Part shown: positions 9,046-40,533 of the stretch, piece by piece
How positions within the stretch are numbered: the first letter of the stretch is position 1
Layout: each line of letters starts with the position of its first letter
Assembly (NCBI GenBank): GCA_001775755.1
Contig: MEYF01000099.1
Location: 5,739-69,738, forward strand
Origin: Candidatus Aminicenantes bacterium RBG_19FT_COMBO_65_30
GTDB lineage: Bacteria; Acidobacteriota; Aminicenantia; Aminicenantales; Saccharicenantaceae
Length of the DNA: 64,000 bases
Direction: 5' to 3'
The notes under the pieces: generated by a model
Databases searched by the model: none
What the model was told of the DNA's origin: nothing
The model's input: only the letters and a program-made list of their open reading frames with translations
Translations under genes and position numbers: made by a program

Positions 9046-9150
9046 CGTCTTTCTCCTTCCGACCTCTTATTAAGCAACTATCGTGCCATCCATCTTCCCA
9101 AGGGGAGAAAGAGAATTTCGTCCTATTAAGAGGACAACCCTGCCGGGACG

Positions 9151-19124: not shown

Positions 19125-19991
19125 ATGGGCAAGAGAGTGTCCGCGAAAAAAGTCCCGGCGGCGCTCCTGCTCACCGTCTTCCTCGTAGCCACGGCGGCCG
19201 CCTTCATGGCCCTCAAGGTCGGGGCGGACAGGATCGTCCGGAAGAAGCTCCCCGGTTCGTCCATCATCTACATCCCGTCCGGCAAATTCCTGAAGTACGC
19301 GACCTTCGGCTACCGGTCCCTGGCCGCCGACGTCATCTTTCTCTGGGCCATCCAGTATTACACGACGCCGACGATCGACGACCGCTTCGACCACCTCGAC
19401 CACATCTTCTCCATCATCAACGAGCTCGACCCGCGCTACCAGGACCCCTACGAGGTCGGCGCCCTCATCGCCGTCCAGGAGGCCGGGGACACGCGGGCCG
19501 CCTTCGCCATCCTCGACCGGGGCGCCGCGAATAATCCGGACCAGTGGGTCTATCCGTTCAACGCCGGCCACGTGGCCATGATGACCCTCAAGGACTTCTC
19601 CCTGGCCGAGAAGTACTTCGAACAGTGCATGAAGATCCCCGGCGCCCCGGAGTTCGTCGAGAGGCTCCGGGCCAACGCCCTCTTCAAGAAGGGCGACCTG
19701 GAGACGTCGTGGGAGACCTGGCTCGACATCTATAACAGGGCCGCGGACGAAGAGATGAAAAAGATCGCCTCGAACCACCTCTACAATGTCAAGGCGACGA
19801 TCGACGCGGCCGCCCTCGAGGACGCGGCGGCGAAATACCGCGAGCGCTTCGGTCACTTGCCCGCGAGCCTCGAGACCCTCATCCGGACGGGCTTTCTCCG
19901 TGAAGTCCCGAAAGATCTCGACGGGAAGGACTACGTCTACGACCCGGTGACGGGGGACGTGAAAACGGTGGTCAGCCCGTGGCGACGTTGA
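19125..19991 (+). CDS. Hypothetical membrane-anchored protein (N-terminal TM helix; C-terminal motif reminiscent of pseudopilin C-termini)
   Basis: 288 aa. The C-terminus LETLIRTGFLREVPKDLDGKDYVYDPVTGDVKTV resembles the GspG-like YL..LPKDPWG..Y.Y pattern. There is no prepilin leader. The stop overlaps the pilD start. Confidence 0.55.
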   Translation: MGKRVSAKKVPAALLLTVFLVATAAAFMALKVGADRIVRKKLPGSSIIYIPSGKFLKYATFGYRSLAADVIFLWAIQYYTTPTIDDRFDHLDHIFSIINELDPRYQDPYEVGALIAVQEAGDTRAAFAILDRGAANNPDQWVYPFNAGHVAMMTLKDFSLAEKYFEQCMKIPGAPEFVERLRANALFKKGDLETSWETWLDIYNRAADEEMKKIASNHLYNVKATIDAAALEDAAAKYRERFGHLPASLETLIRTGFLREVPKDLDGKDYVYDPVTGDVKTVVSPWRR

Positions 19992-20749
19992 TGGTCATCA
20001 TCATCGCGGTCTTCGGCCTCGTCTTCGGCAGCTTTCTCAACGTCGTCATCTACCGCCTGCCGCGGCGGATGAGCCTGATGCGGCCGCCGTCGTCATGCCC
20101 GGGGTGCGGCGCCCGGATCAAGCCCTACGACAACGTCCCCGTCCTGTCTTATCTCCTCCTCGGCGGGAAATGCCGCAGGTGCGGGCGGAAGATATCGCCC
20201 CTCTACCCGGCCGTTGAAGCCCTGACGGGGCTCGGGTTCGTCCTCGTCTACTTGAACGCCGGACGCGCGCTCGGCCTCGAGCTCATCGCCGGCTGCGTGT
20301 TCACGAGCGCCCTCATCGCCCTGGGCTTCATCGATTACCATCACCAGATCCTGCCCGACGTCATCACCCTGCCCGGGCTCGTCCTCGCCCTCGCCTACGC
20401 CTTCTTCAGGGACGACCTGACCTTCCGCGGCGCGCTCCTCGGGGCCGTCGCCGGAGCCGGGTTCCTGATCCTCGTCTACGGGGCCTACTTCCTCGTCCGC
20501 AAAAAAGAGGGCTTGGGCATGGGCGACGTGACCATGCTGCTCATGGTCGGGGCCTACCTCGGCCTGATGCGGACACTCCTGACCCTCATCCTGGCGTCGT
20601 TCGTCGGCGCCCTCGTCGGCGTCTACTTCATCCTCCGCCGGGGCAAGGATTTCCAGTTCGCCCTGCCCTTCGGGACGTTCATCGCCCCGGCGGCCTTCGT
20701 GGCCATGCTCTGGGGAGAGCGGATCGTCCGCGCCTATTTGGGCCTTTAG
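19991..20749 (+). CDS. pilD: Prepilin peptidase (A24 family, PilD/GspO)
   Basis: FGSFLNVVIYRLP, CPGCGARIKPYDNVPVLSYLLLGGKCRRCGRKI zinc-binding motif, and 8 TM helices. A GTG at 19979 is an alternative start. Confidence 0.85.
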   Translation: MVIIIAVFGLVFGSFLNVVIYRLPRRMSLMRPPSSCPGCGARIKPYDNVPVLSYLLLGGKCRRCGRKISPLYPAVEALTGLGFVLVYLNAGRALGLELIAGCVFTSALIALGFIDYHHQILPDVITLPGLVLALAYAFFRDDLTFRGALLGAVAGAGFLILVYGAYFLVRKKEGLGMGDVTMLLMVGAYLGLMRTLLTLILASFVGALVGVYFILRRGKDFQFALPFGTFIAPAAFVAMLWGERIVRAYLGL

Positions 20750-28381: not shown

Positions 28382-30514
28382 CTATCGGATGTTGACGCTC
28401 GCTTCGCCCGTCTGCAGGACTATGGCCTGCCCCATCGGGCTCCCGGCCGTCGCGCTGGTGAAGCCCAGGGACGTTTCGCCCTGGCCCATGGACGTAAAGA
28501 CGAGGACGGCCAGGACCGCCCGGCCCTTGAAGCCCCGGCCGCCCGGCGTGCCGGAGAAGCCGATGGTGCAAGTCCCGCCGCTGATGTGCTTGAGGAAAGG
28601 CACCTTATCCCCCAACTGCCGCAGGCCGCCGCCTTCGAGGACGTCCTTGAGCTTGAGGATCCGGGGATCGAAGGTCAGCACGAGGGAGGCGTTCCCGATC
28701 TCCTGCTCGCTCGAGAGTTCGACGTTCATCCGGAATTCCCGGCCGCGGGGGGCCTCGAAGCTGGCCGGTGAGAGGTAGACGGCGCTCGCGCCGGTGTCCT
28801 CCGGCTGGGCGGGGTTCTCATCGGCCAGGGCCGCCTCCTCGCGCGCGTCCATCGCCGCCCCGGCCGCGCCCGCGCCGGTGACGCCGGAGAGGTTGTCGGG
28901 ATCGACCCAAAGGGGCTTGGCATCGTCCTCGGAGATCTCGATGGCGCGGATGATGTGGGGGGTGATGGTCAGGATGACGTCGGTCTGCTCGATCGTCTTC
29001 TGGGTCGCGGAGAACAGGTTCCCCAGGAGAGGCAGGTCCTTGAGCCCGACGATCCCGCCGGTGGACTTGCGCTCCTCGTCGCGGAGGAGGCCGGCCAGGA
29101 GGTTCGTCTCGCCGTCCTTGAGCCGGACGGTGTTCTTGATCTCGCGGTTGGCGATGATGGGGATGCCGGCGACCCCCTCCGCCGCGATCGACGAGACCGT
29201 CAGCTCGATCTCCAGGGTCACCTCCCGCTCGAGGTGGATCCGAGGCGTCATCTTGATGGTGATGCCGATGTCCTGGAGGGTGTAGTTGACGATCGGCTGG
29301 GTATTGAGCCCGCCCGCGGCGATGGCCGCGAACGTCGAATTGATGATGGGGACTTTCTGGCCGACGATGTACTCCATCTTCTCGCCGCCGAGGCCGCGGA
29401 TCTTGGGCTGGGCGATGATCTTGGTGTCCGAGTCGGTGCCGAGGAATTGGGCGATGGCCGCGGGCACGGTGATCTGGTAGTTGGCCAGGTCTCCGAAGTC
29501 GAGGCCCTTGAACCGGAAATAGCCGTCGTCGGTCATCGAGCCGTCCGCGGGGTTGAGCCGGATGCCCAGGATACCGGAGCTGAGGTCGATGCCGAGCTTC
29601 TTCAGCCGGATCCGGTTGACCTCCATGATCTCGATGTCGATGATGACTTCGCCTTTCGACTTGTCCCAGGAGCGGAGGAGCTTCTCGGCCAGGGCCACGG
29701 CCTGCGGCGTATCCCGGATCGTGACCGAATTGAGGTTCTTGTCGACCTGGATGACCGGAACCTTGTACATGGTCTTGACCATCTGGGTCAGCCGCATCTG
29801 GACGTCGCTCGCGTCGATGTTGGACAGGTAGAAGGTCTTGATGGCGTTGAGCTCGTACTGCATGCGCTTCTGGACGTTGTCGGGGACGATGATGACGGTC
29901 CGCTCGTCGATGACGCGGGAAAAATTCTTGCTGGCGACGCAGAGGAAATTGACGGCCTGTTGGAGGTCCTTGCCGGTCAGGTCGATGGCCAGGTTGGTGT
30001 CGCGAAATGTGTCGTCGTAGAGGAAGTTCACGCCGGCGACGCGGCCCAGGGTTTGGAAGATCGAGCGCAGGGACACTTCGTTCCGGAAGCTCAGGTTGAG
30101 GGTCTCGCCGGAGCCCTTGAGCCGGACCGGGCCCTCGAGCTTTTCCTGAACGGACTTACCGCTTTTCGGCGGGGGCGCGAGAAGGGCCTGCAGCTCTTCG
30201 GCGGCCTTGAAGTTCCGGGGGTCGAAGAAGAGGGCTTTCTTGTAGTTGAGCTCGGCCTCCTTCCTCTTGTTCTGGGCGACGAGGCTTCGGGCCGTCTGAA
30301 CGAAGAAGAGGCCGGCCGAAGCCCTGGCCCGAACGAGGGCCAGGCGGTAGACCGAATCGTTGGGGTGGTTCAGGGCCGCTTTCTGGTAAAACTGGACGGC
30401 CTCCTCGTATTTCTGGTTCATTTCGGCCTTGACGCCCTGCCGGTAGTCCATGCTGAGCGTTTGACAGGCCCCGGCCGCCAGGGCCAAGACCAGGATCAAG
30501 GCGTATTTTTTCAT
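28382..30514 (-). CDS. pilQ: Secretin (PilQ/GspD family) lipoprotein with an N-terminal TPR region and a C-terminal ~190-aa extension
   Basis: Lipobox LAAGAC, TPR-like N-terminus, secretin core ...GIVGLKDLPLLGNLFSATQ..., and a C-terminal beta-rich cohesin-like tail. Confidence 0.8.
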   Translation of the reverse strand: MKKYALILVLALAAGACQTLSMDYRQGVKAEMNQKYEEAVQFYQKAALNHPNDSVYRLALVRARASAGLFFVQTARSLVAQNKRKEAELNYKKALFFDPRNFKAAEELQALLAPPPKSGKSVQEKLEGPVRLKGSGETLNLSFRNEVSLRSIFQTLGRVAGVNFLYDDTFRDTNLAIDLTGKDLQQAVNFLCVASKNFSRVIDERTVIIVPDNVQKRMQYELNAIKTFYLSNIDASDVQMRLTQMVKTMYKVPVIQVDKNLNSVTIRDTPQAVALAEKLLRSWDKSKGEVIIDIEIMEVNRIRLKKLGIDLSSGILGIRLNPADGSMTDDGYFRFKGLDFGDLANYQITVPAAIAQFLGTDSDTKIIAQPKIRGLGGEKMEYIVGQKVPIINSTFAAIAAGGLNTQPIVNYTLQDIGITIKMTPRIHLEREVTLEIELTVSSIAAEGVAGIPIIANREIKNTVRLKDGETNLLAGLLRDEERKSTGGIVGLKDLPLLGNLFSATQKTIEQTDVILTITPHIIRAIEISEDDAKPLWVDPDNLSGVTGAGAAGAAMDAREEAALADENPAQPEDTGASAVYLSPASFEAPRGREFRMNVELSSEQEIGNASLVLTFDPRILKLKDVLEGGGLRQLGDKVPFLKHISGGTCTIGFSGTPGGRGFKGRAVLAVLVFTSMGQGETSLGFTSATAGSPMGQAIVLQTGEASVNIR

Positions 30515-30972
30515 GGCCGCTCTCCTTGTCTCGGGAACGTTTTCCTCTCGGAATTGGGGCCCTGGACGACGATCGCATCGGCCGTGACCCCGACGACCTT
30601 GTAGCCGGGCGCGATCTCGTCGCCCTCTCCCACGGATACGGTCTGGCCGTTACGGAGGACGAGGGCGATCGTCCGGCCGCCGGACTTGATCGAGCCGATG
30701 TAGCTGATCCTCAGGGCGAAAGCCGGCGGGACTTCCGGCCGGGGGACTTCCGGCCCCGCGACGGCGGGTCCGCCGGCCCGGCGGACGGCCGCGGGGACAG
30801 CCGCGGTCTTCGGCCGGAAGATGTCGCGCACCGGCGGGGCGATCTCGCCGCTGCCGAAGACGAGGAGGTCCATGCGGACGAGGGATTTCGGGCGCTCGGC
30901 GTCCTGGGCCGCGAAGAGAGCCAAGGCCCCGCCGAGGACGAGACCCGCCACCGCCGCTTTCTTAGATGCCAT
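30511..30972 (-). CDS. pilP: PilP-like pilus-assembly / secretin-associated protein
   Basis: 153 aa with a signal/TM segment, a Pro-rich linker and a C-terminal beta domain. Its position between pilO and pilQ supports the call. Confidence 0.5.
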   Translation of the reverse strand: MASKKAAVAGLVLGGALALFAAQDAERPKSLVRMDLLVFGSGEIAPPVRDIFRPKTAAVPAAVRRAGGPAVAGPEVPRPEVPPAFALRISYIGSIKSGGRTIALVLRNGQTVSVGEGDEIAPGYKVVGVTADAIVVQGPNSERKTFPRQGERP

Positions 30973-31522
30973 AGTACCCCGCCAGTGTCAGCTTGGCGTT
31001 CAGGCGCTCGCCGCCGGAACCCGTCCTCGGGAAATCAACCTGCTCGATGACCAGGAACTTAGGGAACGCTTCAAGGGCGGCCAGGAGCTTCTTCAAGCCT
31101 GTGTACGTGCCCATGTAGGTGAAGGTGACGAGCGTTTTCCGGACCTGTTCCCTCTCCATTTCGGAATAGCCGTAGTTGAGATCGGTGATGGTCGTCCCGG
31201 CCAGGGCAAAGATCTGCTCAAGATCCTGGCGCAAGGCCTGGACCCCTTCCTCTTTTTCGTAGAAATAGCCCGTTCGGAGCTCTTCGAGGTCGCGGCCCGC
31301 GTCCTCCCAGCGCTTCCACTCGGCCCTGGCTTCGTCGCGCGCCAGGACGGCCCTCTGGGCGGATTCCTGAAGACGGAACGAGGCCGTCCTTTCCTTCTCC
31401 AGGCCGCCACGCATCCGCGCGAACAGGACGAGGAAGACGACCAGGGCGAGGATCGCGGCCAGGCCGAGCCGGCCGAACGTCCGCCGCTCCGTGTCGTTGA
31501 ACTGGTCAAAGAACGCGTTCAT
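30962..31522 (-). CDS. pilO: PilO/GspM-like inner-membrane assembly protein
   Basis: 186 aa with an N-terminal TM helix, a coiled coil and a C-terminal ferredoxin-like domain. Gene order supports the call. Confidence 0.55.
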   Translation of the reverse strand: MNAFFDQFNDTERRTFGRLGLAAILALVVFLVLFARMRGGLEKERTASFRLQESAQRAVLARDEARAEWKRWEDAGRDLEELRTGYFYEKEEGVQALRQDLEQIFALAGTTITDLNYGYSEMEREQVRKTLVTFTYMGTYTGLKKLLAALEAFPKFLVIEQVDFPRTGSGGERLNAKLTLAGYYGI

Positions 31523-32072
31523 AGCTCAGGGTAATCTCCGCGATGAGCCGGCCTTCCTGGCTCCGGGTCTCGCCGCCGACTTGGATATGCTTGAAGCCGC
31601 GGGCGGTGAGGTCGGTGATGAACGCGAGGAGGTCGTCGAGGCTGCGCGAGGTCACCGACATGCGCATCGTGATCGCGCTGTCCGTCGTGAAGCCCGGGCT
31701 GAGCGTCGTGATATAGCTCGGCCCGGGGAGCGCCTGCTCGAGCTCCGAGAAAAGCGCCGTCCAAAGGAACGTCTTCCTCAGGATGATGCCGTTGACGAGG
31801 TCCACCCGCGTCCGGCTGAGCCCCTCTTCCCTCTGGATGTCGGCCGTCAGGCGCTTCTCCTCGATCTCGGCCTCGCCCTGGAGAATCCGCATCTCGGCGC
31901 TCGAGGACTTGAGCCGGGCCGCTTCGCCGCCGTATTTCAGGATGTCGAACGCGGTCAGGGCGGCGAGAACGACGATGAACAGGGCCAGGGCCCAGAGGAC
32001 GGCCGCATAGAAGCGCCGGTTCCGGAGCGGCCTCGTGGCCAGGTTCAGGTTGAGCGTGACACGTTCATTCAT
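31506..32072 (-). CDS. pilN: PilN-like inner-membrane assembly protein
   Basis: MNERVTLNLNLATRPLRNRRFYAAVLWALALFIVVL (typical PilN N-terminus and TM helix). The start is at Met 32072, overlapping the pilM stop. Confidence 0.6.
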   Translation of the reverse strand: MNERVTLNLNLATRPLRNRRFYAAVLWALALFIVVLAALTAFDILKYGGEAARLKSSSAEMRILQGEAEIEEKRLTADIQREEGLSRTRVDLVNGIILRKTFLWTALFSELEQALPGPSYITTLSPGFTTDSAITMRMSVTSRSLDDLLAFITDLTARGFKHIQVGGETRSQEGRLIAEITLSYERVL

Positions 32073-33013
32073 AGAATCTGTCCGACGAGAGGGGCGAGCA
32101 GGTCCTTTTGGGCCTCGGTCCACACCTCGGGAGCCTCGTAATCGACGGATTGGATCGGCAGGACGATCCTCTCTTTCAGCCGGCCCATGACCTCCGGCCT
32201 TTCCGCGGCGGCGGCGCAGCGGAGCCAGAGCCTCTCGATCCTCGTCTTGTCCTTGTCCTCAAGGAAGCGGATGGTGTTCTCCACTTCCCTGACGATATTG
32301 CCGGCGCGGTCATCCGGCCCGGTCCCGCCGGGAGCGCCGACGTCCTTTTGGCGGTAGAGCGCCCAGCCGGAATCGAGGAGCGCCAGGAGCGTCAGGGCTT
32401 CGTCTTCCAGGTTGAGGAGGATGCCGTTGGCCGAGCTTTCCCGCCCGACCAGGTTGACCAGGGTCAGGGACGGGATGGTCACGAGCACCGGCTTCAGCCC
32501 GGCTTTTTCGAACAGAGCTTCGTACTCCCAGACAACCACCTGGCGGGCCATGGCCACGATGACCTTTCTTGAGCCCCGTCCAGGCGTGACCGCGTAGTCG
32601 ATCCGGGCGTCCTCGGGGATGAGAGGCATCTGCTTGCCGATGCGCCAGCGGATAAAGGTGTCCCTCTCCTTGCCGGAGCCTGGAAAGGAGTCGACATTCA
32701 GGACGAAGACGCGGACGGCCGGCTCGGGGATGAGGAGGGCGGCCGACCCGGAGGAGATGTGGAGGTTCTTCTTCCCCTGCGTGATAGCCTCCTCGAGGGC
32801 CGCCGGATCGGTCACGTTGGGCCGGTCGAACGAAGGACTGACCGGGCGTTCCCGGAAGGGCAGGACGAAGCCGCCCTTGATCGACCCGTCATTCTTGGCG
32901 ACGCGGATGCCGCTCAGGTACGCCGGGGCGATCTGGAAGACGGCGTCGGGCAGGAGCCGTTCGGTGAAATGAGTTTTGAGGCGTTTCCCGAGCGTCACGC
33001 GGTCACTCCACAA
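32069..33013 (-). CDS. pilM: PilM/GspL-like actin-fold assembly protein (start uncertain; the TTG at 33013 comes from the track)
   Basis: 314 aa in the upstream position of the pilMNOPQ order. The fold assignment comes from context. Confidence 0.5.
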   Translation of the reverse strand: MWSDRVTLGKRLKTHFTERLLPDAVFQIAPAYLSGIRVAKNDGSIKGGFVLPFRERPVSPSFDRPNVTDPAALEEAITQGKKNLHISSGSAALLIPEPAVRVFVLNVDSFPGSGKERDTFIRWRIGKQMPLIPEDARIDYAVTPGRGSRKVIVAMARQVVVWEYEALFEKAGLKPVLVTIPSLTLVNLVGRESSANGILLNLEDEALTLLALLDSGWALYRQKDVGAPGGTGPDDRAGNIVREVENTIRFLEDKDKTRIERLWLRCAAAAERPEVMGRLKERIVLPIQSVDYEAPEVWTEAQKDLLAPLVGQIL

Positions 33014-34610
33014 AGGTCACTTTGTTCAGGTCCTTGAGGCTGGTTATCCCCGCCCGGACCTTGTCCAAGCCGACTTCTCTCAAAAACACCATGCCCTCCG
33101 CCTTGGCCCGTTTCTTGACCTCGGAGAGGGGTCTTTTCTCAAGGATGAGTTCCCGGATGGGGTCCGAGAGCTCGAGGATCTCGGCGATGGCCGTCCGGCC
33201 CTGGTAGCCCGTGAAATTGCATTCGGGACATCCCTTCGGCTCGAAGAAGTCGGTCTCCGCGTGCCGGGCCGGATCGAGGCCCGACTCCGCGAGCTGCGGG
33301 GCGCCGTAGCGGACGGGGACCTTGCAACGCGGGCAGAGGATCCGGACCAGGCGCTGGGCCAGGATGCAATTGAGGGCCGAGATGAAGCTGTAGGGGTCGA
33401 CCTGCATATGGAGGAAGCGCCCGATGACGTCGAAGACGTTGTTGGCGTGAACGGTCGTGAAGACGAGGTGGCCGGTCAGAGCGGACTGGATGGCGATCTG
33501 GGCCGTTTCGGGATCGCGGATCTCGCCGACCATGATCTTGTCCGGGTCGTGGCGGAGGATGGAGCGCAGCCCCCGGGCGAAGGTCAGGCCCTTCTTCTCG
33601 TTGACGGGGATCTGGGTGATGCCGTCGACCTGGTACTCGACGGGGTCCTCGATGGTGATGATCTTGTCTTCCGGGGACTTGATCTCCGTCAGGGCCGCGT
33701 AGAGAGTCGTCGTCTTGCCGCTGCCCGTCGGCCCGGTGACCAGGACCATGCCGTAGGGCTGGGCGATGTACTTGCGGAATTTCTTCTGGATCTCGTCGGT
33801 GAAGCCGAGGAGGTCCAGGCGCAGCTCGCGGATGGCCTGGGTGATCATCTCTTTGTCGAGGATGCGGATGACCGCGTCCTCGCCGTAGATGCAGGGCATG
33901 ATGGAGACGCGGAAATCGATGGTCTTGTCCTTGATCTTGAGCCGGAAGCGACCGTCCTGGGGGACGCGGCGCTCGGCGATGTCCAGGTCGGACATGACCT
34001 TGATGCGGGAGATGATGGGCGACTGGAACTTCTTGTCGATGGCCTCCATCGCCTCGCCGAGGACGCCGTCGATCCGATATTTGATCTTGACGTCGTCTTC
34101 CTTGGATTCGATGTGGATGTCGCTCGCCCGTTTCTGGACGGCGGTGAAGATGATCGTGTGGACGAGCTTGATGATCGAATCGTCCTGGTCGGCCAGCTTC
34201 TCGATGGAGATGACGTCCTCTTCCTCCCCGCTCTCGCGCTCGACGACCTGGGTGACGAAGCCCTCGGTGGCGTCGCGGAGGACTTGCATGGCCGTCTCGC
34301 TCTTCCTCAGGGCCTCAAGGATGGCCCGCTTGGAGGCGGCGAAGACCTTGACCCTTTTCCCCAGGAAGGCTTCGATGGCGTCGATGGAGGCGATGTCGGA
34401 CGGGTCGGCGACGGCGATCTTCATGACGCCATCCTCGTCGCCGAGGGGGACGAAGTTGAGACGGTGGAGGAATTCGACGGGGAACGACTGGATGAGGTTG
34501 CGGTCGAGCCGTTCGGTCTCGAGGTCGAGGTAGGGAACGCGGTAGCGTGCGGCCAGGGTCCGGGTGGCCTTCTCCTCGCCGCCGACGTTATCCTGCCTAT
34601 CCTTGCTCAT
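33003..34610 (-). CDS. pilB: Type IV pilus assembly / type II secretion ATPase (GspE/PilB family)
   Basis: VTGPTGSGKTTTL Walker A, the tetracysteine motif CPRCK...CPEC, and a GSPII_E N-terminal domain. Confidence 0.9.
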   Translation of the reverse strand: MSKDRQDNVGGEEKATRTLAARYRVPYLDLETERLDRNLIQSFPVEFLHRLNFVPLGDEDGVMKIAVADPSDIASIDAIEAFLGKRVKVFAASKRAILEALRKSETAMQVLRDATEGFVTQVVERESGEEEDVISIEKLADQDDSIIKLVHTIIFTAVQKRASDIHIESKEDDVKIKYRIDGVLGEAMEAIDKKFQSPIISRIKVMSDLDIAERRVPQDGRFRLKIKDKTIDFRVSIMPCIYGEDAVIRILDKEMITQAIRELRLDLLGFTDEIQKKFRKYIAQPYGMVLVTGPTGSGKTTTLYAALTEIKSPEDKIITIEDPVEYQVDGITQIPVNEKKGLTFARGLRSILRHDPDKIMVGEIRDPETAQIAIQSALTGHLVFTTVHANNVFDVIGRFLHMQVDPYSFISALNCILAQRLVRILCPRCKVPVRYGAPQLAESGLDPARHAETDFFEPKGCPECNFTGYQGRTAIAEILELSDPIRELILEKRPLSEVKKRAKAEGMVFLREVGLDKVRAGITSLKDLNKVTFVE

Positions 34611-34631
34611 GTCCCTCGCCTCCCGGGTCGT

Positions 34632-35840
34632 TCATCGGGCGATCCTGATGATGTTGAAGATCGGTATATACACCGAAAGAAGCATCGCCGCCACCACGAG
34701 TCCCATCATGATGATGACCACCGGCTCGATCAGGGTGACCAGTGTCTCGATTTTACCACGAACCCGCTCGTCGTAAAAGTCGGCCATGTCGCCGAGCATT
34801 CCCTGGAGATTGGCCGAGCTCTCCCCGATGCGGACCATGTCCAGGGCCAGGGCCGGGAACGTCCCGGCCGAGGTCAGAGACTCGGACAGGCTCTCGCCGT
34901 TTTTTATGTGGTCCGGGACGTCTTCCATGTGCTTGACGATCCAGGCGTTGGGCACCGCCTGGATGGCGATGCCGATCGCCGCGAGCAGGGAGATGCCCGC
35001 TTCGAGGAGGAGGCCGAGGGTCCGGCTGAAAAGGCTGATGCCCGACTCGAGCCAGATCGTCCGGCCATAGGGAACGCGGAGCTTGGCCCGGTCCAGGTGG
35101 AAGCGGAAATCCGGCCTCCGCCGCAACCGGTAGATCAGGAAGGCGACCGCCAGGAAAGCGGCCACCAGGATGTACCAGTGCCGGCTCATGATCAGGGCGA
35201 AGGCCATGATAAGCCGGGTGATCCAGGGCAGCTCGGCCTCGAAGCTCTTGTAGAAATCGGCGAAATTGGGCAGGACGAAGTTGACCAGGAGGCCTATGAG
35301 GATGAAGGAGAAGACGATGAGGATCGTCGGGTAGGTCATGGCCGACTTGATCCGGGCCCGGGTTTGGGTGATCACCTTGGCGTACTGGATGTAGCGGCCG
35401 ATCGACCCGGCGAGGTTGCCGCTCTTTTCCCCGGCCATCAGACTGGCCGTATAGACCGGGGAGAACAGCTTCTCATAGGGCAGGAAGGCCTCGGACAGGG
35501 CCTTGCCCCTCTTGACCTCCCCGGTGACCTTGATCAGGATCTCCCTGAGGTGGACGTTCTTGACCCGGGCGGTAATGGCGTCGAGGCCCTTGAGGATAGG
35601 ATAACCTGCTTTGATGAGGGCGACGAGCTCCTGGTTGAACAGGATGATGTCCTTATCCTTGACCTTTCGCCCCAACCCGAAGCCCTGCTTCCCCAGCCTT
35701 TTCCAGTCGCGCCGGATGGAGAGGACGAGCAAGCCCTCAAATTCGGACATTTTCCGGCCTTCCTCGGCCGACGGCGCCAGGACGGACCGGCTATCGACCC
35801 GGCCATCCTCACCGGCGATCCGGCACAGATAGTACGGCAT
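34632..35840 (-). CDS. pilC: Type II secretion system F-family inner-membrane platform protein (PilC/GspF)
   Basis: 402 aa with two T2SF repeats and three TM regions. Confidence 0.85.
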   Translation of the reverse strand: MPYYLCRIAGEDGRVDSRSVLAPSAEEGRKMSEFEGLLVLSIRRDWKRLGKQGFGLGRKVKDKDIILFNQELVALIKAGYPILKGLDAITARVKNVHLREILIKVTGEVKRGKALSEAFLPYEKLFSPVYTASLMAGEKSGNLAGSIGRYIQYAKVITQTRARIKSAMTYPTILIVFSFILIGLLVNFVLPNFADFYKSFEAELPWITRLIMAFALIMSRHWYILVAAFLAVAFLIYRLRRRPDFRFHLDRAKLRVPYGRTIWLESGISLFSRTLGLLLEAGISLLAAIGIAIQAVPNAWIVKHMEDVPDHIKNGESLSESLTSAGTFPALALDMVRIGESSANLQGMLGDMADFYDERVRGKIETLVTLIEPVVIIMMGLVVAAMLLSVYIPIFNIIRIAR

Positions 35841-35894
35841 TTTGGCGAATTTCCGTTATTATTTAGTCGCCCCTAATCTATTCCAGGGCGCAAT

Positions 35895-35948
35895 TATTGT
35901 CAAACAGGAGTCTTCGGAGGAAGCTCGCCGGAGCTCGTATTGACAAAC
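35895..35948. promoter_or_regulatory. Two near-identical 11-bp elements tattgtcaaac / tattgacaaac, 43 bp apart, in the pilC / sensor-kinase divergent region
   Basis: Seen directly. Each contains a -35-like TTGACA/TTGTCA. The second is followed by a possible -10 (TAACTA/ACTATA). Confidence 0.3.
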
Positions 35949-35976: not shown

Positions 35977-36252
35977 GTGACCTATACCAAGAAGGCCCTC
36001 TCGGGAGCGCTGGCAGGGGCGATTTTCGGCCTATTCCTTGGTTCCCCGGCGATGCGGCCCGGGTCGCGGACGGCGGCCCAGGAGCCTCCTCCCCAGGAAG
36101 TCCAAAAGCCCAACTATGATTACATGAGCGGGTTCCTTTCGAGGAGCACTAATCCGCTCGGGCTCAAGGACGATCCGGCCGCGAGGAGAATGCTCGGTCA
36201 GGGCTCCGTTCCGTGGGCCATCCGGGCCGGGTCGCGGCACGTCCTCGACTGA
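35977..36252 (+). CDS. Possible small secreted or membrane protein (GTG start); weak call
   Basis: The N-terminal hydrophobic segment ALSGALAGAIFGLFLGSPA is then followed by Pro/Arg-rich sequence that could be GC noise. Confidence 0.25.
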   Translation: MTYTKKALSGALAGAIFGLFLGSPAMRPGSRTAAQEPPPQEVQKPNYDYMSGFLSRSTNPLGLKDDPAARRMLGQGSVPWAIRAGSRHVLD

Positions 36253-36288: not shown

Positions 36289-39138
36289 ATGCCGATGAAA
36301 AGATCGCTCGTCTTCGTCCTTGTCCTTCTCCTCGCCGTCCTCGCCCTGGGGACGATAAACGTCTACCGGAAGGCGATATGGAGAGACATCACGGACGGCA
36401 TCACCTGGAAGGCCACGGCGAGCGGCCTGCGGGCCATCCGCGTCGACCCGGCCAGCGAAGCCTTCCTGCGGGCGGGCATTCGCAAGGGGGACATCCTCAC
36501 CGCGATCAACAAGGTGCCCGTGCGGACGAAGATCGACGTCCTCAAGAGCCTCTGGCAGGCCGCCGCGACCGACCAGAGCGTCACCTACCAGATCAACAAA
36601 GAGGGGATGCAGATCTACCCCACCTTCTATCCCCAAAAAAAGGCCGCCAACCCCATCTATTATTATCTCGTCCTCGTCGGCGTGACCACTCTCGTCATAG
36701 GCCTCGTCGTCTTCCTCAATTCACGGGGGCCGATGTCCCTCCCTTACGTGTTCTTCTATCTCCTGGCCCTGGCCTTCGCCGCGTTCATGGTCTTTTCGCC
36801 GACCGGCGAGTTGACGGCGCTCGACCTGGTCTTCCACGGATTGGACAAGCTGGGCTTCCTGGCCTTCCCGCCCCTGCTCCTGCACTTTTTCATGATCTTT
36901 CCCCTGCGCAAGCGCTTTCTCAAGAACCGATCCGACGTGTTCCCCTTCCTCTACGCGCCCGCCGCGCTCCTCCTTCTTGCCCGGCTGCGCCTGCACGTCC
37001 CGCTCCCCCATCCATGGAGCGAGGCGGCGGCCCTCCGCTACCAGGACGGCCTCGAACGGCTCGAGCTCCTCCACTTCGCGGCCTTCGCCCTCATCACGTT
37101 GTTGATCCTGGCCCACAGCACTCGCCGGGCCCCGAACATCCTGGTCAAGAAGCAGCTCCGCATCATCGTCTACGGACTGGGCTTCGGCGTCCTCCCTTCG
37201 ACCGTCTTCTACCTCGCCCCCTTCGTCGCCGGAGGGCGGCCGTCCACGGGCGCGGAACTGACGGTCCTCCTCCAGGCCCTCATCCCCCTGTCTTTTTCCT
37301 ACTCCATCTCCCGCTACCGGCTGGTCGACATCGAGGTGTTTCTGAAAAAGGCGGCGACCCTGACCTTCTCCTTTTTCGTTATCGCCTTCGTCTATTTCTT
37401 CGTCAGCTCCCGGACCCGGATCTTCTCGGAGAACCGGCTCAACACCATCATCCTCGGCATCCTGGCCATCGTCCTCGGGGCAACGCTGTTCACGCCGCTC
37501 AAGCGGCTCTTCCAGGGCCTCTTCGACAGGGCCATATATAAAAGGAGCTATGAGTACCGGAAAACCCTGCTGTCCATCACCCGCGACCTCAGCCGTGAAC
37601 GGAACCTCGAGAAGCTCGCCCAGTCCCTCCTCGAGGCCATCGCCAACGCGCTGAACTTGAAAACCGTGGCGCTCCTCCTGGCCGACGAAAACGACCGGCG
37701 GGGCTTCAAGGTTCTCAAGACGAAGGGCGAGGAGGCGGGCTTGCCCGGCCGGATCGTCCTCGACGACTGGCTGGCCGGGGCGCTCCGGGAAAGGGACACC
37801 CTCGCGTTCGTCTCGGCCTCCGAATCGGAGCCCGCCCGGGCGGCGATGGAAAAGCTCTCGGTCCTCGGATTCTTCCACGTCCTCCCGCTCAAGGTCGAGG
37901 ACGAGGTCATCGGCTGCCTGGTCATGGGGAAGAAGCTCGACGGGTCCTTCTTCTCGCGGGAGGACTGGGAGCTGTTGACGACGATCTCCGGCTCGGCCGC
38001 CCTGGCCCTGGAGAACGCCGACCTCTACGGCCGCGAAACCGTCCGGGCGCTGGAGATGCAGAGGCTCAAGGACTACAGCGAGAACATCATCGAGAGCCTG
38101 ACCGTGGGCGTCTCCGTCATCGACGAAGAGGGGGTCGTCATCGGCTGGAACAGGGTCCTCGAAGACCAGGTCTCCGTGCGTAAGGAGGCCGCCCTCGGCA
38201 AGAGGCTCCAGGACGTCCTGGGCCCGGCCACCTTCGGCGTCCTTTTCCCGCAGGAAGGCCAGCAGGGCCTTCGGCTCCTCAGCGAGATCACGCTGGAGAC
38301 GGCCGGCGGCGGGAAAAAGATCTTCGACATCGCCCGGACCCCGCTCCTCGACAACGCCCTTCGGGCCTACGGGACCATCATCGTCTTCGAGGACATCACC
38401 GACAAGATCCACCTTCAACAGCAGCTCCTGACCTCGGAGAAGCTGGCCTCGATCGGCCTGCTCTCGGCCGGCGTCGCCCACGAGATCAACACGCCCCTGA
38501 CGGGGATCTCAAGCTACATCCAGATGCTCCAGAAAAAGCTCACCGACACCCACTACGCCCAGATCCTGGAGAAGGTCGAGGCCCAGACCGACCGGGTTGC
38601 CCGGATCGTCAAGAACCTCCTGACGTTCGCCCGCAGCCCCTCCGACGCCTCGTTCCTGCGCGTCGACCTGAAGCAGAGCCTGGAGGAGATCCTGTCGCTC
38701 ATCGACTACAAGCTGAAGAACATGAACATCCGTCTCGCCCTCGAGCTCGCGCCCGTCCCCCCGTTCTACGCCCAGGGCGAGAGGCTCCAGCAGGTCTTCA
38801 TCAACATCATCCTCAACGCCTTGGACGCCATGCCCCGGGGCGGAGATCTCTCCATCCGCCTGAGCCTGGAGAACGGGGCCGCGGTCGTCCGCATCGCGGA
38901 CACCGGAACGGGCATCAAGCCGGAGCACCTGTCCCGCATCTTCGACCCCTTCTTCACGACGAAGGGCGTCGGCAAGGGGACCGGGCTCGGCCTGTCCATC
39001 AGCTACGCCATCATCAAGGAGCACGAAGGCCATATCGAGGTCCAGAGCGAAGTCGGCCGGGGGTCGATGTTCACCATCACTCTGCCGGTCGGCCGGGACG
39101 GCTCCCGGAGACCAGGGCCCCCGGCTCCGAGGACATGA
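36289..39138 (+). CDS. Multi-domain sensor histidine kinase (periplasmic PDZ-like domain, multi-TM region, GAF, PAS, HisKA, HATPase)
   Basis: H-box GVAHEINTPLTG; the G1/G2 boxes DTGTGI...GTGLGLSI. 949 aa. Confidence 0.85.
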   Translation: MPMKRSLVFVLVLLLAVLALGTINVYRKAIWRDITDGITWKATASGLRAIRVDPASEAFLRAGIRKGDILTAINKVPVRTKIDVLKSLWQAAATDQSVTYQINKEGMQIYPTFYPQKKAANPIYYYLVLVGVTTLVIGLVVFLNSRGPMSLPYVFFYLLALAFAAFMVFSPTGELTALDLVFHGLDKLGFLAFPPLLLHFFMIFPLRKRFLKNRSDVFPFLYAPAALLLLARLRLHVPLPHPWSEAAALRYQDGLERLELLHFAAFALITLLILAHSTRRAPNILVKKQLRIIVYGLGFGVLPSTVFYLAPFVAGGRPSTGAELTVLLQALIPLSFSYSISRYRLVDIEVFLKKAATLTFSFFVIAFVYFFVSSRTRIFSENRLNTIILGILAIVLGATLFTPLKRLFQGLFDRAIYKRSYEYRKTLLSITRDLSRERNLEKLAQSLLEAIANALNLKTVALLLADENDRRGFKVLKTKGEEAGLPGRIVLDDWLAGALRERDTLAFVSASESEPARAAMEKLSVLGFFHVLPLKVEDEVIGCLVMGKKLDGSFFSREDWELLTTISGSAALALENADLYGRETVRALEMQRLKDYSENIIESLTVGVSVIDEEGVVIGWNRVLEDQVSVRKEAALGKRLQDVLGPATFGVLFPQEGQQGLRLLSEITLETAGGGKKIFDIARTPLLDNALRAYGTIIVFEDITDKIHLQQQLLTSEKLASIGLLSAGVAHEINTPLTGISSYIQMLQKKLTDTHYAQILEKVEAQTDRVARIVKNLLTFARSPSDASFLRVDLKQSLEEILSLIDYKLKNMNIRLALELAPVPPFYAQGERLQQVFINIILNALDAMPRGGDLSIRLSLENGAAVVRIADTGTGIKPEHLSRIFDPFFTTKGVGKGTGLGLSISYAIIKEHEGHIEVQSEVGRGSMFTITLPVGRDGSRRPGPPAPRT

Positions 39139-39141
39139 ACC

Positions 39142-40533
39142 ATGAGCAGCAAAGGCATCATCCACATCATCGACGACGAGCCGGTCATCCACGACGTCCT
39201 GGCCCAGCTGCTGACGTCGGAGGGCTACGAGGTCGAGATCTCGGGCTCGGGGGAAGAGGCCTTGGAGAAATTCCCTTCCCAGTCCTTCGACGTCATCCTC
39301 CTCGACCTCCTCATGCCGGGGATGGACGGGATCGAGACCCTGCGGCGGATCAAAAGGTTCGACCCCCTGGCCCCCGTCATCATCATCACCGCTTATGGCT
39401 CGGTCGAATCGGCCATCTCGGCCATGAAGATCGGCGCCCTCGACTACGTCCAGAAGCCCTTCAAACACGACGACCTCCTCCTAGCCGTCGAGAAGGCCCT
39501 CGAGCGCAAACGCCTCCAGGATGAGAACCTCCGCCTCAAGGACGAGCTCCGGCAGCGCTTCGGCTTCGCCAACATCATCGGCAAGAGCGAGGCCATGAGG
39601 GACGTCTTCGAGCTGGTCAAAGCGGCCGCCCCGACGCGGAGCACGATCCTCCTCCAGGGCGAGAGCGGCACCGGCAAGGAGCTCGTCGCCCGGGCTATCC
39701 ACATGAATTCGAATCGGGCCGACGCCCCGTTCGTCACCGTCAACAGCGGATCGCTTCCGCCCGACCTGCTCGAGAGCCACCTCTTCGGGCACGTCAAGGG
39801 AGCCTTCACGGGCGCCGTAGCCCTGAAGAAGGGCCTGTTCGAGGCGGCCGATCGAGGGACCATCTTCTTCGACGAGATCTCCTCCATCAGCCTCGAGACC
39901 CAGGCCAAGCTTCTCCGGGTCATGCAGGAGAAGGAATTCATGCGTCTCGGCGGGACCCAGACGATCAAGGTGGACGTCCGCATCCTCGCGGCCACGAACG
40001 CCGACATCGAGGAGCTCATCGTCCAGAAGGCTTTCCGCAAGGACCTCTTCTACCGGCTCAACGTGATCAAGATCGAGATCCCGCCCCTTCGCGAGAGGAA
40101 GGAAGACATCCCCCAGCTCGTCAAGCACTTCGTCGAGATCTACGCCCGCGAGAATCAAAAGGACGTCGAAGGGGTGAGCGAGGACGTCCTCGAAATCCTC
40201 GACGCCCACGCCTGGCCGGGGAATGTCCGCGAGCTCGAGAACCTCGTCGAACGGGCCGTCGTCCTGTCCCGCTCCAACGTCATCACCCGGACCTCCCTCC
40301 CCCCCTTCCTGCTCCGCGCCGACGGCGTCGACGACGAGGCGCTGATCGCCTCGGAAGAGTCCCTGGACCTCAGGGACCGGACCCAGGCCTTCCAGAAAAA
40401 GGTCATCCTGGCCGCGCTGAAAAAGACGAAGGGGGTCCAGAACAAGGCCGCCAAGCTCCTCGGGGTCAAGCCGACGACACTGAACGAGATGATCAAGCGG
40501 CTCCGGATCGATACGGGCAACTTCCCCGCCTAG
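39142..40533 (+). CDS. Sigma-54-dependent response regulator (NtrC/PilR family)
   Basis: REC domain (DDEPVIHD...LLDLLMPGMDG), AAA+ GESGTGKE, GAFTGA motif, and a C-terminal Fis-type HTH. Confidence 0.9.
   Translation: MSSKGIIHIIDDEPVIHDVLAQLLTSEGYEVEISGSGEEALEKFPSQSFDVILLDLLMPGMDGIETLRRIKRFDPLAPVIIITAYGSVESAISAMKIGALDYVQKPFKHDDLLLAVEKALERKRLQDENLRLKDELRQRFGFANIIGKSEAMRDVFELVKAAAPTRSTILLQGESGTGKELVARAIHMNSNRADAPFVTVNSGSLPPDLLESHLFGHVKGAFTGAVALKKGLFEAADRGTIFFDEISSISLETQAKLLRVMQEKEFMRLGGTQTIKVDVRILAATNADIEELIVQKAFRKDLFYRLNVIKIEIPPLRERKEDIPQLVKHFVEIYARENQKDVEGVSEDVLEILDAHAWPGNVRELENLVERAVVLSRSNVITRTSLPPFLLRADGVDDEALIASEESLDLRDRTQAFQKKVILAALKKTKGVQNKAAKLLGVKPTTLNEMIKRLRIDTGNFPA

What the first reader, a model, noticed from the sequence alone, without database searches (positions are those of the whole stretch)
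28382..35840. Complete pilB-pilC-pilM-pilN-pilO-pilP-secretin assembly cluster with no pilin, pilT or alignment-subunit pilins in the window
Seven co-directional, mostly overlapping genes encode the platform (F-family), the assembly ATPase, the MNOP alignment complex and a secretin. There is no major or minor pilin, no retraction ATPase, and the prepilin peptidase is 8 kb away in another operon. A sigma54 PilR-like regulator and a large sensor kinase are divergently placed. This architecture fits a T4aP-like or T2SS-like machine whose filament subunits are encoded elsewhere, possibly a non-canonical secretion or uptake system.
Basis: partly seen in the sequence, partly recalled or inferred. 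Interest (0 to 1): 0.55.

Follow-up and report, generated by a model that had tools for sequence, protein, structure and literature searches.

The report
Pilus-machine core operon without pilins
An uncultured Aminicenantes bacterium carries a conserved seven-gene operon for the motor, platform, alignment proteins and outer-membrane pore of a pilus/secretion machine, the kind called an "unorthodox type II secretion system" in Ralstonia; its filament genes lie elsewhere, so it is an ordinary but little-studied system.

Summary
Seven translationally coupled minus-strand genes (28382-35840) encode a GspF/PilC platform, a PilB/GspE ATPase, PilM/N/O/P-like proteins and a secretin. The 64 kb window holds no pilin and no second ATPase. 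Neither do about 6.5 kb and 9.3 kb of flank read from near-identical contigs. The prepilin peptidase lies 7.6 kb away, and a sensor kinase plus a sigma-54 regulator are divergent.

The locus is not a new kind of system. The window comes from Ca. Aminicenantes RBG_19FT_COMBO_65_30. The operon and its divergent regulators are syntenic across Aminicenantes. The same F-E-M-N-O-P-Q core occurs in Vicinamibacterales, Janthinobacterium and the Ralstonia solanacearum megaplasmid, where the literature calls it an "unorthodox T2SS". The published Geobacter/Pelobacter Pul cluster has the same gene order.

The family's signature is a lipoprotein secretin with an N-terminal TPR module and a C-terminal cohesin-fold module. 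Outside Aminicenantes, three dedicated pseudopilins follow the secretin. In other Aminicenantes, a fimU-pilV-pilW-pilX-pilY1 or adhesin-type minor-pilin operon sits between tilS and pilD. In the window's clade tilS and pilD abut and that operon is absent. The core genes are under purifying selection.

Verdict: a dispersed, functional type IV filament machine and a new member of a known, poorly characterised family. Whether it builds a pilus or secretes proteins is unresolved.

The parts
35875..35903 (-). sigma-70-type promoter-like site TTGACA-17-TAGATT upstream of the first gene
   Evidence: 10 of 12 consensus matches. No sigma-54 site lies upstream of F in the window, and no site recurs at a conserved position in the related loci.
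34632..35840 (-). Inner-membrane platform protein (GspF/PilC family), 402 aa
   Evidence: Pfam T2SSF x2, E 3.9e-49. NCBIfam GspF 276 bits and PilC 241 bits, both below the equivalog cut-offs. M. xanthus PilC 178 bits.
33003..34610 (-). Assembly ATPase (PilB/GspE family), 535 aa, with Walker A GPTGSGKT and a tetracysteine motif
   Evidence: T2SSE 2.3e-129 plus an N-terminal MshEN-type domain. PilB 536 versus GspE 532 bits. The core is equally similar to GspE (369 bits) and PilB (362 bits). It is 47-49% identical, at 471 bits, to the Ralstonia/Janthinobacterium unorthodox-T2SS ATPase.
32069..33013 (-). PilM-like cytoplasmic protein, 314 aa
   Evidence: A profile of 27 orthologues hits PilM of M. 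xanthus (2.1e-16), Thermus (1.4e-9) and P. aeruginosa (1.9e-6). No GspL hit.
31506..32072 (-). PilN-like bitopic protein, 188 aa, with the conserved N-terminal motif LNLA..P..N
   Evidence: One TM helix. N10, L11, P15 and N18 are invariant. The PDB PilN match is not significant (E 0.086). The profile finds the equivalent 'hypothetical' genes in Ralstonia and Janthinobacterium.
30962..31522 (-). PilO/GspM-like bitopic protein, 186 aa
   Evidence: Pfam T2SSM_b 25.9 bits, above its cut-off. The profile hits M. xanthus PilO at 1.1e-7.
30511..30972 (-). PilP-like periplasmic protein, 153 aa, with a signal/anchor helix, a Pro/Ala linker and a beta domain
   Evidence: The profile hits Neisseria PilP at 7e-6. 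No cysteine in the signal peptide.
28382..30514 (-). Lipoprotein secretin, 710 aa: lipobox Cys17, TPR module, N0-like domain, one Secretin_N domain, secretin domain, linker, cohesin module
   Evidence: The secretin domain is closer to GspD (73 bits) than to PilQ (48 bits). A full-length HMM aligns to the Ralstonia (577 bits) and Janthinobacterium (572 bits) secretins.
30185..30463 (-). TPR module of the secretin (residues about 18-110)
   Evidence: TPR_2/TPR_1 hits. TPR families are found in 37 of 41 diverse family members.
28385..28786 (-). C-terminal cohesin-fold module of the secretin (residues about 577-710)
   Evidence: Pfam Cohesin 26.6 bits, above its cut-off, and present in 28 of 41 family members. 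AlphaFold2 model with pLDDT 84.5. All of the top 50 Foldseek PDB hits are cohesins; the best is 2xdh, E 1.8e-11, TM 0.74/0.81.
35977..36252 (+). Small conserved secreted protein (91 aa) upstream of the kinase
   Evidence: Found at this position in about 45 Aminicenantes loci. The C-terminal ~50 residues are conserved and end in RHILD/N.
36289..39138 (+). Sensor histidine kinase: TM helix, periplasmic PDZ, 7TM region, GAF, PAS, HisKA, HATPase
   Evidence: Syntenic with the operon across Aminicenantes.
39142..40533 (+). Sigma-54-dependent response regulator (NtrC family)
   Evidence: Response_reg, Sigma54_activat and HTH_8 domains. Syntenic across Aminicenantes.
19979..20749 (+). Prepilin peptidase (PilD/GspO family)
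   Evidence: A24_N_bact 6.8e-35 and Peptidase_A24 9e-18. In relatives it lies just beyond the minor-pilin operon.
19125..19991 (+). Membrane-anchored TPR-like protein (288 aa), always paired with the peptidase
   Evidence: Its C-terminal ~55 residues weakly resemble the globular domain of the GspG-like pseudopilin 'b'.

Best explanation
This is the Aminicenantes version of a widespread family of type IV filament machines. The literature calls this family the 'unorthodox T2SS' in Ralstonia solanacearum. The 'Pul' atypical T2SS of Geobacter and Pelobacter has the same gene order.

The operon encodes the complete envelope-spanning core. The ATPase (E) drives the polytopic platform (F). A cytoplasmic PilM-like protein clamps the N-terminus of the bitopic PilN-like protein. 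PilN/PilO-like proteins and the PilP-like protein bridge to a self-anchored lipoprotein secretin. Pilins processed by the nearby prepilin peptidase are inserted at the platform and polymerised into a filament that passes through, or pushes through, the secretin.

The filament genes are not missing from the biology. They have been uncoupled from the operon. Outside Aminicenantes, three dedicated pseudopilins follow the secretin. In other Aminicenantes, a minor-pilin/PilY1 or minor-pilin/adhesin operon lies between tilS and pilD. In the window's clade that slot is empty, so the subunits must be encoded elsewhere in the genome.

For Aminicenantes I consider a surface-exposed adhesive pilus somewhat more likely than a periplasmic secretion pseudopilus.

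Shown: the identity of the parts, the family membership, the synteny and purifying selection. Inferred: the assembly mechanism, the location of the pilins in this genome, and the choice of pilus over secretion.
For: Parts list and topology.

M, O and P profiles match solved PilM, PilO and PilP and match no GspL, GspM or GspC.

Organism and conservation. The synteny RR-HK-small ORF | F-E-M-N-O-P-Q holds in about 45 Aminicenantes loci, down to 43% secretin identity. F-E-M-N-O-Q is also present in Vicinamibacterales and other Acidobacteriota.

Ralstonia megaplasmid and Janthinobacterium plasmid clusters have gspF-gspE-four 'hypothetical' genes-secretin-three pseudopilins. The secretins align over the full length, including lipobox, TPR and cohesin (577 and 572 bits). 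The ATPase scores 471 bits against them, compared with 409 for the best PilB and 370 for the best GspE in the PDB. The N and O profiles find their counterparts.

The three pseudopilins are one-to-one orthologous between Vicinamibacterales and Betaproteobacteria, at 29-50% identity.

[quoted passage not shown] The Pelobacter/Geobacter cluster is pulF-E-M-N-O-P-Q(secretin lipoprotein)-pulG-oxpG (PMC3543383 supplement).

In Aminicenantes the backbone is Q - tilS - [fimU-pilV-pilW-pilX-pilY1, or two minor pilins plus PilX_N/DUF7305 adhesin-like proteins] - pilD.

dN/dS is 0.12-0.66 for all seven genes within the clade that lacks pilins at this locus.
Against: No pilin gene of this genome has been seen, so coupling to any particular filament is inferred from relatives.

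The dedicated pseudopilin trio that defines the family elsewhere was not found in any Aminicenantes locus.

The minor-pilin/PilY1 operons are separated from the operon by tilS and 2-9 kb. They could serve another machine that I could not look for.

No retraction ATPase lies within 10 kb in any of the 82 secretin-anchored loci scanned (L001-L082). The secretin and platform score slightly better against T2SS models than against T4P models. Both observations favour the secretion reading.

In three genomes the cluster is interrupted at or in the secretin gene (L001, L017, L091), so the system is not indispensable everywhere.

Orthology with the Geobacter Pul proteins rests on published gene order and product names only. 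I could not obtain those sequences.
Confidence: 0.6

Rival explanations
1. It is a protein-secretion machine in the strict T2SS sense. A short periplasmic pseudopilus built from GspG-like subunits encoded elsewhere pushes folded exoproteins through the secretin, as reported for the Geobacter Pul/OxpG system. The minor-pilin/PilY1 operons near it in some Aminicenantes would then belong to another function.
For: The family's non-Aminicenantes members carry three small GspG-like pseudopilins and no PilY1 or PilT. The secretin domain and the platform score higher against GspD/GspF than against PilQ/PilC models. No retraction ATPase lies near any of the 82 secretin-anchored loci scanned. [quoted passage not shown] Aminicenantes are thought to be saccharolytic or proteolytic fermenters that need exoenzymes (my own knowledge, not tested here).
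Against: The a/b/c pseudopilin trio is absent from every Aminicenantes locus examined. The pilin genes that are syntenic with the cluster in Aminicenantes are T4aP-type minor pilins with PilX_N, PilY1 or adhesin-like domains. The secretin has only one Secretin_N ring domain rather than the N1-N3 set of GspD. M, O and P match Pil proteins and not Gsp proteins.
Confidence: 0.28
2. It is a DNA-uptake (competence) pilus machine.
For: Type IV pilus machines of this composition mediate DNA uptake in Thermus and Neisseria (established knowledge). The Pelobacter paper notes that pul genes lie near DNA uptake and metabolism genes.
Against: No comEA, comEC or dprA-like genes appear among the window genes scanned with Pfam. 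There is no specific evidence for this reading.
Confidence: 0.06
3. It is a remnant: the pilins were lost from this clade and the core is on its way to decay. Alternatively, it works without canonical pilins.
For: The minor-pilin operon is missing from its ancestral slot, since tilS and pilD abut. The cluster is broken in L001, L017 and L091.
Against: All seven ORFs are intact. dN/dS is 0.12-0.66 across four species of the clade. The prepilin peptidase is retained. The promoter and translational coupling are preserved.
Confidence: 0.05

Closest known systems
Ralstonia solanacearum 'unorthodox T2SS' (megaplasmid cluster, e.g. RSgd_p0088-p0098; also on a Janthinobacterium lividum plasmid)
   Same: The gene order is the same: F-E-four small genes-secretin. 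The secretin has the same architecture (lipobox, TPR, N domains, secretin, cohesin-like C-terminus), aligned over its full length at 577 bits. The ATPase is 47-49% identical. N-like and O-like proteins are detectable by profile.
   Different: The proteobacterial clusters carry three dedicated pseudopilins directly after the secretin, plus a gspG upstream in Ralstonia. The window and all Aminicenantes loci lack them. The M and P counterparts are too diverged to detect by profile. The divergent PDZ-kinase/sigma-54 regulator pair was not seen beside the proteobacterial clusters.
Geobacter/Pelobacter Pul system (atypical T2SS; pseudopilins PulG, OxpG, TklG)
   Same: The published gene order pulF-pulE-pulM-pulN-pulO-pulP-pulQ is the same. 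PulQ is annotated as a secretin lipoprotein and PulM as a putative PilM-type ATPase (PMC3543383 supplement).
   Different: pulG and oxpG follow pulQ there, and nothing equivalent follows the secretin here. Sequence-level orthology could not be tested because no Geobacter sequences were obtainable with these tools.
Type IVa pilus machine (PilB, PilC, PilM, PilN, PilO, PilP, PilQ of Myxococcus, Pseudomonas, Thermus, Neisseria)
   Same: The inventory is the same. M, O and P profiles match solved PilM, PilO and PilP. The PilN-type N-terminal motif is present. In other Aminicenantes, T4aP-type minor pilins with PilX and PilY1 lie in the neighbourhood.
   Different: The secretin has no AMIN domains; it has a lipid anchor, a TPR module and a cohesin module instead. 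The ATPase alignment to PilB begins about 55-65 residues into PilB, so it appears to lack that N-terminal stretch. No PilT or PilU was found. None of the proteins reaches the NCBIfam PilB, PilC or PilQ cut-offs.
Canonical T2SS (GspC-O)
   Same: It shares an ATPase, a platform and a secretin of the same superfamilies. The secretin domain and platform score marginally best against GspD and GspF. The O protein hits T2SSM_b.
   Different: There is no GspL or GspC, and separate PilM/PilN-like proteins take their place. The secretin has a single Secretin_N domain. No GspG-K genes are in the locus. All scores are far below the equivalog cut-offs.
Self-piloting liposecretins (HxcQ) and TPR pilotins (PilF, PilW, Tgl)
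   Same: The secretin has an N-terminal lipobox whose cysteine is nearly invariant across the family, followed by TPR repeats. This suggests outer-membrane targeting without a separate pilotin. HxcQ and the pilotins are cited in PMC12475490.
   Different: The TPR module is only about 2.5 repeats and is fused to the secretin. Homology to pilotins was not tested, so the resemblance is functional analogy only.

Membership tests
Type IV filament superfamily machine | PilB/GspE-family ATPase and GspF/PilC-family platform | tested here: met
   T2SSE 2.3e-129 and T2SSF x2 3.9e-49. PDB matches to PilB, GspE and PilC.
Type IV filament superfamily machine | Prepilin peptidase available | tested here: met
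   A24_N_bact plus Peptidase_A24 at 19979-20749.
Type IV filament superfamily machine | Pilins with a class-III signal peptide | tested here: not met
   None in the 64 kb window or in 15.8 kb of flank from near-identical contigs. The rest of the genome could not be read.
Type IVa pilus machine | PilM-PilN-PilO-PilP alignment subcomplex | tested here: met
   Profiles hit PilM (2.1e-16), PilO (1.1e-7) and PilP (7e-6). PilN is supported only by topology, position and the N-terminal motif (E 0.086).
Type IVa pilus machine | PilQ-type secretin (AMIN domains, above the PilQ model cut-off) | tested here: not met
   No AMIN domain. NCBIfam PilQ 93 bits against a cut-off of 284. Closer to GspD.
Type IVa pilus machine | Retraction ATPase PilT | tested here: not met
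   No second T2SSE-family gene in the window or within 10 kb in the 82 secretin-anchored loci L001-L082. Not testable genome-wide.
Type IVa pilus machine | Minor pilins FimU/PilV/PilW/PilX with PilY1 | tested here: not met
   Absent from the window. Present 2-9 kb downstream in other Aminicenantes (L024, L030, L032, L036, L055, L060, L062, L091).
Canonical T2SS (Gsp) | GspL, GspM and GspC assembly platform | tested here: not met
   No GspL or GspC match by Pfam, NCBIfam or PDB profiles. Only the O protein hits T2SSM_b and XpsM weakly.
Canonical T2SS (Gsp) | GspD, GspE and GspF at equivalog level | tested here: not met
   GspD 131 against a cut-off of 351, GspE 532 against 630, GspF 276 against 424 bits.
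Unorthodox T2SS (Ralstonia) / Pul-type | Gene order F-E-four small genes (M, N, O, P)-secretin in one operon | tested here: met
   Literature: PMC5080846 and the PMC3543383 supplement.
Unorthodox T2SS (Ralstonia) / Pul-type | Lipoprotein secretin with N-terminal TPR and C-terminal cohesin-like module | tested here: met
   Full-length HMM alignment to the Ralstonia and Janthinobacterium secretins.
Unorthodox T2SS (Ralstonia) / Pul-type | ATPase closer to family members than to reference PilB or GspE | tested here: inconclusive
   471 bits to the Ralstonia ATPase against 409 (PilB) and 370 (GspE, truncated constructs) in the PDB. These are bit scores only; no phylogeny was made.
Unorthodox T2SS (Ralstonia) / Pul-type | Three dedicated pseudopilins immediately after the secretin | tested here: not met
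   Profiles of the three families find them in L071, L072, L077, L080, L081, L089 and L090, but in no Aminicenantes locus and not in the window.
Unorthodox T2SS (Ralstonia) / Pul-type | Sequence orthology to Geobacter PulE, PulF and PulQ | not testable with these tools
   No Geobacter sequence was reachable.

The most novel reading that the evidence does not exclude
The ring of cohesin modules that the secretin carries on a flexible linker may act as a docking platform. It is probably periplasmic, by analogy with the position of the C-terminus in solved secretins. It could recruit a partner such as cargo, a pseudopilin-like protein like the peptidase-linked 288-aa protein, or an envelope anchor. 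That would give this widespread machine family a cohesin-based recruitment step unknown in T2SS or T4P biology. In the window's clade it could even operate with non-canonical, uncleaved subunits instead of classical pilins.
Probability: 0.08. Interest if true: 0.7.

Novelty: new member of a known kind. Interest (0 to 1): 0.25.

Why it matters
The result turns an apparently odd 'pilin-less' cluster into a placed member of a large family that has barely been studied. The secretin alone has about 1100 clusters at 50% identity with E <= 1e-30. The family spans Acidobacteriota and Betaproteobacteria and, judged by published gene order, Desulfuromonadales.

It gives the four 'hypothetical' genes of the Ralstonia unorthodox T2SS a likely identity as PilM/N/O/P-like proteins. 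The N and O profiles detect their counterparts there, while M and P are assigned by position only. It also identifies a family hallmark that I found no paper describing: a lipid-anchored secretin with a TPR module and a genuine cohesin fold.

Because Ralstonia and Janthinobacterium are genetically tractable, the function of the family and of the cohesin ring can be tested there and carried over to uncultured Aminicenantes.

Tried and rejected
- **Sigma-54 control of the operon.** No TGGCAC-N5-TTGC site lies upstream of F in the window, and no site recurs at a conserved position in the related loci. A sigma-70-type promoter is there instead.
- **c-di-GMP-binding MshE-type N-terminus.** Reading the sequence by eye, the first 110 residues show no RLGxxLLxxG-type motif. 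The Pfam 'MshEN' hit covers residues 23-104 and looks like the generic N-terminal domain shared by this ATPase family.
- **Finding the pilins of the window's clade.** A PilV-like profile search returned 1559 hits, but the 120 listed were all from the query's own clades.
- **Taxonomic spread from cluster look-ups.** Almost no names came back.
- **First locus scan.** The 41-sequence alignment was too diverse to give search patterns. I repeated the scan with 10 sequences.
- **Dockerin partner for the cohesin.** No double Ca-loop dockerin motif occurs in the window or in the ORFs of L001-L082, the loci fetched up to that point.
- **Assigning the ATPase to PilB or GspE by similarity.** The two are tied.
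- **Single-sequence PDB search for PilM.** It gave noise; profiles were needed.
- **Mehta et al. 2006.** The paper is not held.
- **Rfam.** It found only a tRNA.
- **NTPase_1 and ThiS genes after the secretin.** They are conserved only in part of the class and are replaced by tilS elsewhere, so I did not count them as parts of the system.

Full report
**Observation.** The region 28382-35840 holds seven minus-strand ORFs with high GC3.
- F, 34632-35840, 402 aa.
- E, 33003-34610, 535 aa.
- M, 32069-33013, 314 aa.
- N, 31506-32072, 188 aa from the ATG.
- O, 30962-31522, 186 aa.
- P, 30511-30972, 153 aa.
- Q, 28382-30514, 710 aa.

Five junctions overlap by 4-17 nt, and F and E are 21 nt apart, so this is one translationally coupled operon. 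A sigma-70-type promoter-like site (TTGACA-17-TAGATT) lies at 35903-35875.

Pfam and NCBIfam identify F as a T2SSF x2 platform protein. E is a T2SSE ATPase with the usual N-terminal domain. O is T2SSM_b. Q is a secretin. M, N and P are too diverged for single-sequence searches. Profiles built from 20-27 orthologues hit solved PilM (2.1e-16, 1.4e-9, 1.9e-6), PilO (1.1e-7) and PilP (7e-6), and they hit no GspL, GspM or GspC. N has PilN topology and an invariant N-terminal N-L...P..N motif, but only a non-significant PilN match.

**What is absent.**
- No class-III signal peptide motif occurs in any frame of the window.
- tblastn with 18 pilins and associated pilus-operon proteins from related loci finds nothing pilin-like.
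- There is one ATPase and one platform gene only.
- Pfam scans of the GC3-supported ORFs (a few short ones not scanned) show metabolism, transport and housekeeping genes.

The prepilin peptidase is at 19979-20749 (+). The kinase (36289-39138) and the sigma-54 regulator (39142-40533) are divergent from F.

The window belongs to Candidatus Aminicenantes bacterium RBG_19FT_COMBO_65_30, on a 73 kb contig. Contigs 99.6-99.8% identical to the window extend it by 6.5 kb on one side (Mla genes, a malectin-domain protein) and 9.3 kb on the other (NrdD, nuo genes). Neither extension has a pilin or an ATPase.

**Conservation.** Secretin homologues of 75-88% identity are abundant in Aminicenantes metagenomes, nearly all with the same domain set. 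At 50% clustering there are 1097 representatives with E <= 1e-30.

A scan of species-representative genomes gave 80 loci. In about 45 Aminicenantes loci, down to 43% secretin identity, the arrangement regulator-kinase-small ORF | F-E-M-N-O-P-Q is retained. Vicinamibacterales and other Acidobacteriota keep F-E-M-N-O-Q.

Within the window's own clade, all seven genes show dN/dS of 0.12-0.66 against four other species. The core is under selection even though no pilin gene is nearby.

**Where the pilins are in relatives.** Three patterns emerge.
- In the non-Aminicenantes Acidobacteriota, three small prepilin genes follow the secretin directly. Their best model match is GspG, below its cut-off.
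- In several Aminicenantes lineages, a T4aP-type minor-pilin operon lies 2-9 kb downstream on the same strand. One form is a GspH/FimU-like gene, PilV-like, PilW-like, PilX_N and a 1200-aa FG-GAP/PilY1 protein. The other form is two minor pilins followed by PilX_N/DUF7305 adhesin-like proteins.
- The downstream backbone is Q - (an NTPase-ThiS-AOR-aldolase-HD-GYP insert in some clades) - tilS - minor-pilin operon - pilD with a conserved 288-aa partner on the opposite strand - ABC transporter.

A complete chromosome (CP070750.1, L091) shows this backbone on one stretch. In the window's clade, tilS (20679-22199, minus) and pilD (19979-20749, plus) overlap at their 3' ends, so the slot is empty.

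The peptidase '8 kb away in another operon' is thus the far end of an ancestral pilus neighbourhood. The window's clade has lost or moved the pilin operon from that spot. A sigma-54-type site precedes the minor-pilin operon in three relatives, but none is conserved before F. This suggests the conserved kinase/regulator pair acts on pilin genes, in the manner of PilS/PilR. That is an inference.

**Link to known systems.** tblastn of the secretin against plasmids found full-length relatives on a Janthinobacterium lividum plasmid, where it is annotated 'cohesin domain-containing protein', and on Ralstonia solanacearum megaplasmids. The annotated Ralstonia region reads gspG, gspF, gspE, four hypothetical genes, secretin, three pseudopilins. 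Janthinobacterium has the same genes permuted.

The supporting comparisons are as follows.
- The family HMM aligns to both secretins end to end (577 and 572 bits), including the lipobox, TPR and cohesin-like C-terminus.
- The ATPase is 47-49% identical to theirs (471 bits). That is higher than to any PilB (409) or GspE (370) in the PDB.
- The N and O profiles find two of the four hypotheticals.
- The three pseudopilins are one-to-one orthologous with those of Vicinamibacterales.

[quoted passage not shown] The Pelobacter/Geobacter 'Pul' system is listed as pulF-E-M-N-O-P-Q(secretin lipoprotein)-pulG-oxpG (PMC3543383 supplement). [quoted passage not shown] I could not obtain Geobacter sequences, so that link rests on gene order and product names.

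**The secretin.** It starts with a signal peptide and a lipobox cysteine that is nearly invariant in the family. Then come about 2.5 TPR repeats, an N0-like domain (STN/FecR_C), one Secretin_N domain, the secretin domain, a low-complexity linker of roughly 45-55 aa, and a C-terminal module.

An AlphaFold2 model of the last 152 residues has pLDDT 84.5. All of its top 50 structural matches in the PDB are cohesins. The best is the non-cellulosomal cohesin of Archaeoglobus (E 1.8e-11, TM 0.74/0.81).

By analogy with solved secretins, whose C-termini lie on the periplasmic side of the barrel, the module probably forms a periplasmic ring. That is established knowledge applied by inference. No dockerin-type partner motif was found nearby. 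I found no paper describing a secretin-cohesin fusion.

**Pilus or secretion?** The evidence is mixed.
- For a T2SS-like role: the pseudopilin trio in the other members, the slight preference of the secretin and platform for Gsp models, and no retraction ATPase near any locus.
- For a pilus: the Pil-type M/O/P proteins, the single ring-forming N domain in the secretin, and above all the T4aP-type minor pilins with PilY1 or adhesin domains that are syntenic with the operon in Aminicenantes.
- The ATPase core is tied between GspE (369 bits) and PilB (362 bits).

I put a surface pilus slightly ahead for Aminicenantes, but the question is open. It needs whole-genome inventories and experiments in a tractable member.

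**Verdict.** The locus is not a novel class. It is a dispersed member of a known, poorly characterised family of type IV filament machines. The features most worth following up are the family-wide TPR-lipo-secretin-cohesin architecture and the replacement of the dedicated pseudopilins in Aminicenantes. Interest is low to moderate.

Noticed in passing
window 35977-36252 (+) and 36289-39138 (+): A small secreted protein lies between the operon and the kinase in about 45 Aminicenantes loci. Its N-terminus varies, but the last ~50 residues are strongly conserved and end in RHILD/N. The kinase has a periplasmic PDZ domain before its 7TM region, so the small protein's C-terminus could be the PDZ ligand.
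   Followed up: partly
window 19125-19991 (+): A membrane-anchored TPR-like protein of 288 aa is always paired with the prepilin peptidase. Its C-terminal ~55 residues weakly but repeatedly match the globular domain of the GspG-like pseudopilin 'b' of the unorthodox T2SS. It has no class-III signal peptide.
   Followed up: partly
window 9074-9088 (-): A perfect sigma-54 promoter consensus (TGGCACGATAGTTGC) lies just upstream of a 763-aa FecR/DUF6600 protein gene (6754-9045). It is the only exact match in the window and a possible target of the sigma-54 regulator.
   Followed up: no
L001 9027-10004; L017 10049-12139; L091 3916-5277: In three Aminicenantes genomes with long contigs the cluster is interrupted at different points: inside the PilP-like gene, just upstream of the secretin, or inside the secretin (only residues 265-710 remain). 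A second assembly of the L001 species (L002) is intact. This could be rearrangement, decay or assembly error.
   Followed up: partly
L070 6844-8508 (also L067): Some Aminicenantes carry a paralogous TPR-secretin (554 aa, no cohesin) without any ATPase or platform genes. It sits among large surface proteins with CARDB, PKD and CarboxypepD_reg domains.
   Followed up: partly
window 27836-28375 (-) and 27577-27852 (-): An NTPase_1 (THEP1-like) gene starts 6 nt after the secretin stop and is followed by a ThiS/MoaD-like gene and an aldehyde:ferredoxin oxidoreductase. This block lies between the secretin and tilS only in part of the class, so it looks like an insertion rather than part of the machine.
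   Followed up: partly
L030 18829, L036 18194, L062 18076: Sigma-54-type sites (TGGCAT-N5-TTGC or one mismatch further) lie 150-200 nt upstream of the minor-pilin operon in three Aminicenantes relatives.
   Followed up: partly
window 22238-22311 (-): A tRNA gene lies directly upstream of tilS. It is the only Rfam match in the window.
   Followed up: no
L024, L030, L032, L036, L055, L060, L062 (PilV-like genes): The PilV-like minor pilin of Aminicenantes has an invariant D-x-N-x-D-x-x-x-D-x-R-R loop that looks like a calcium-binding site.
   Followed up: no
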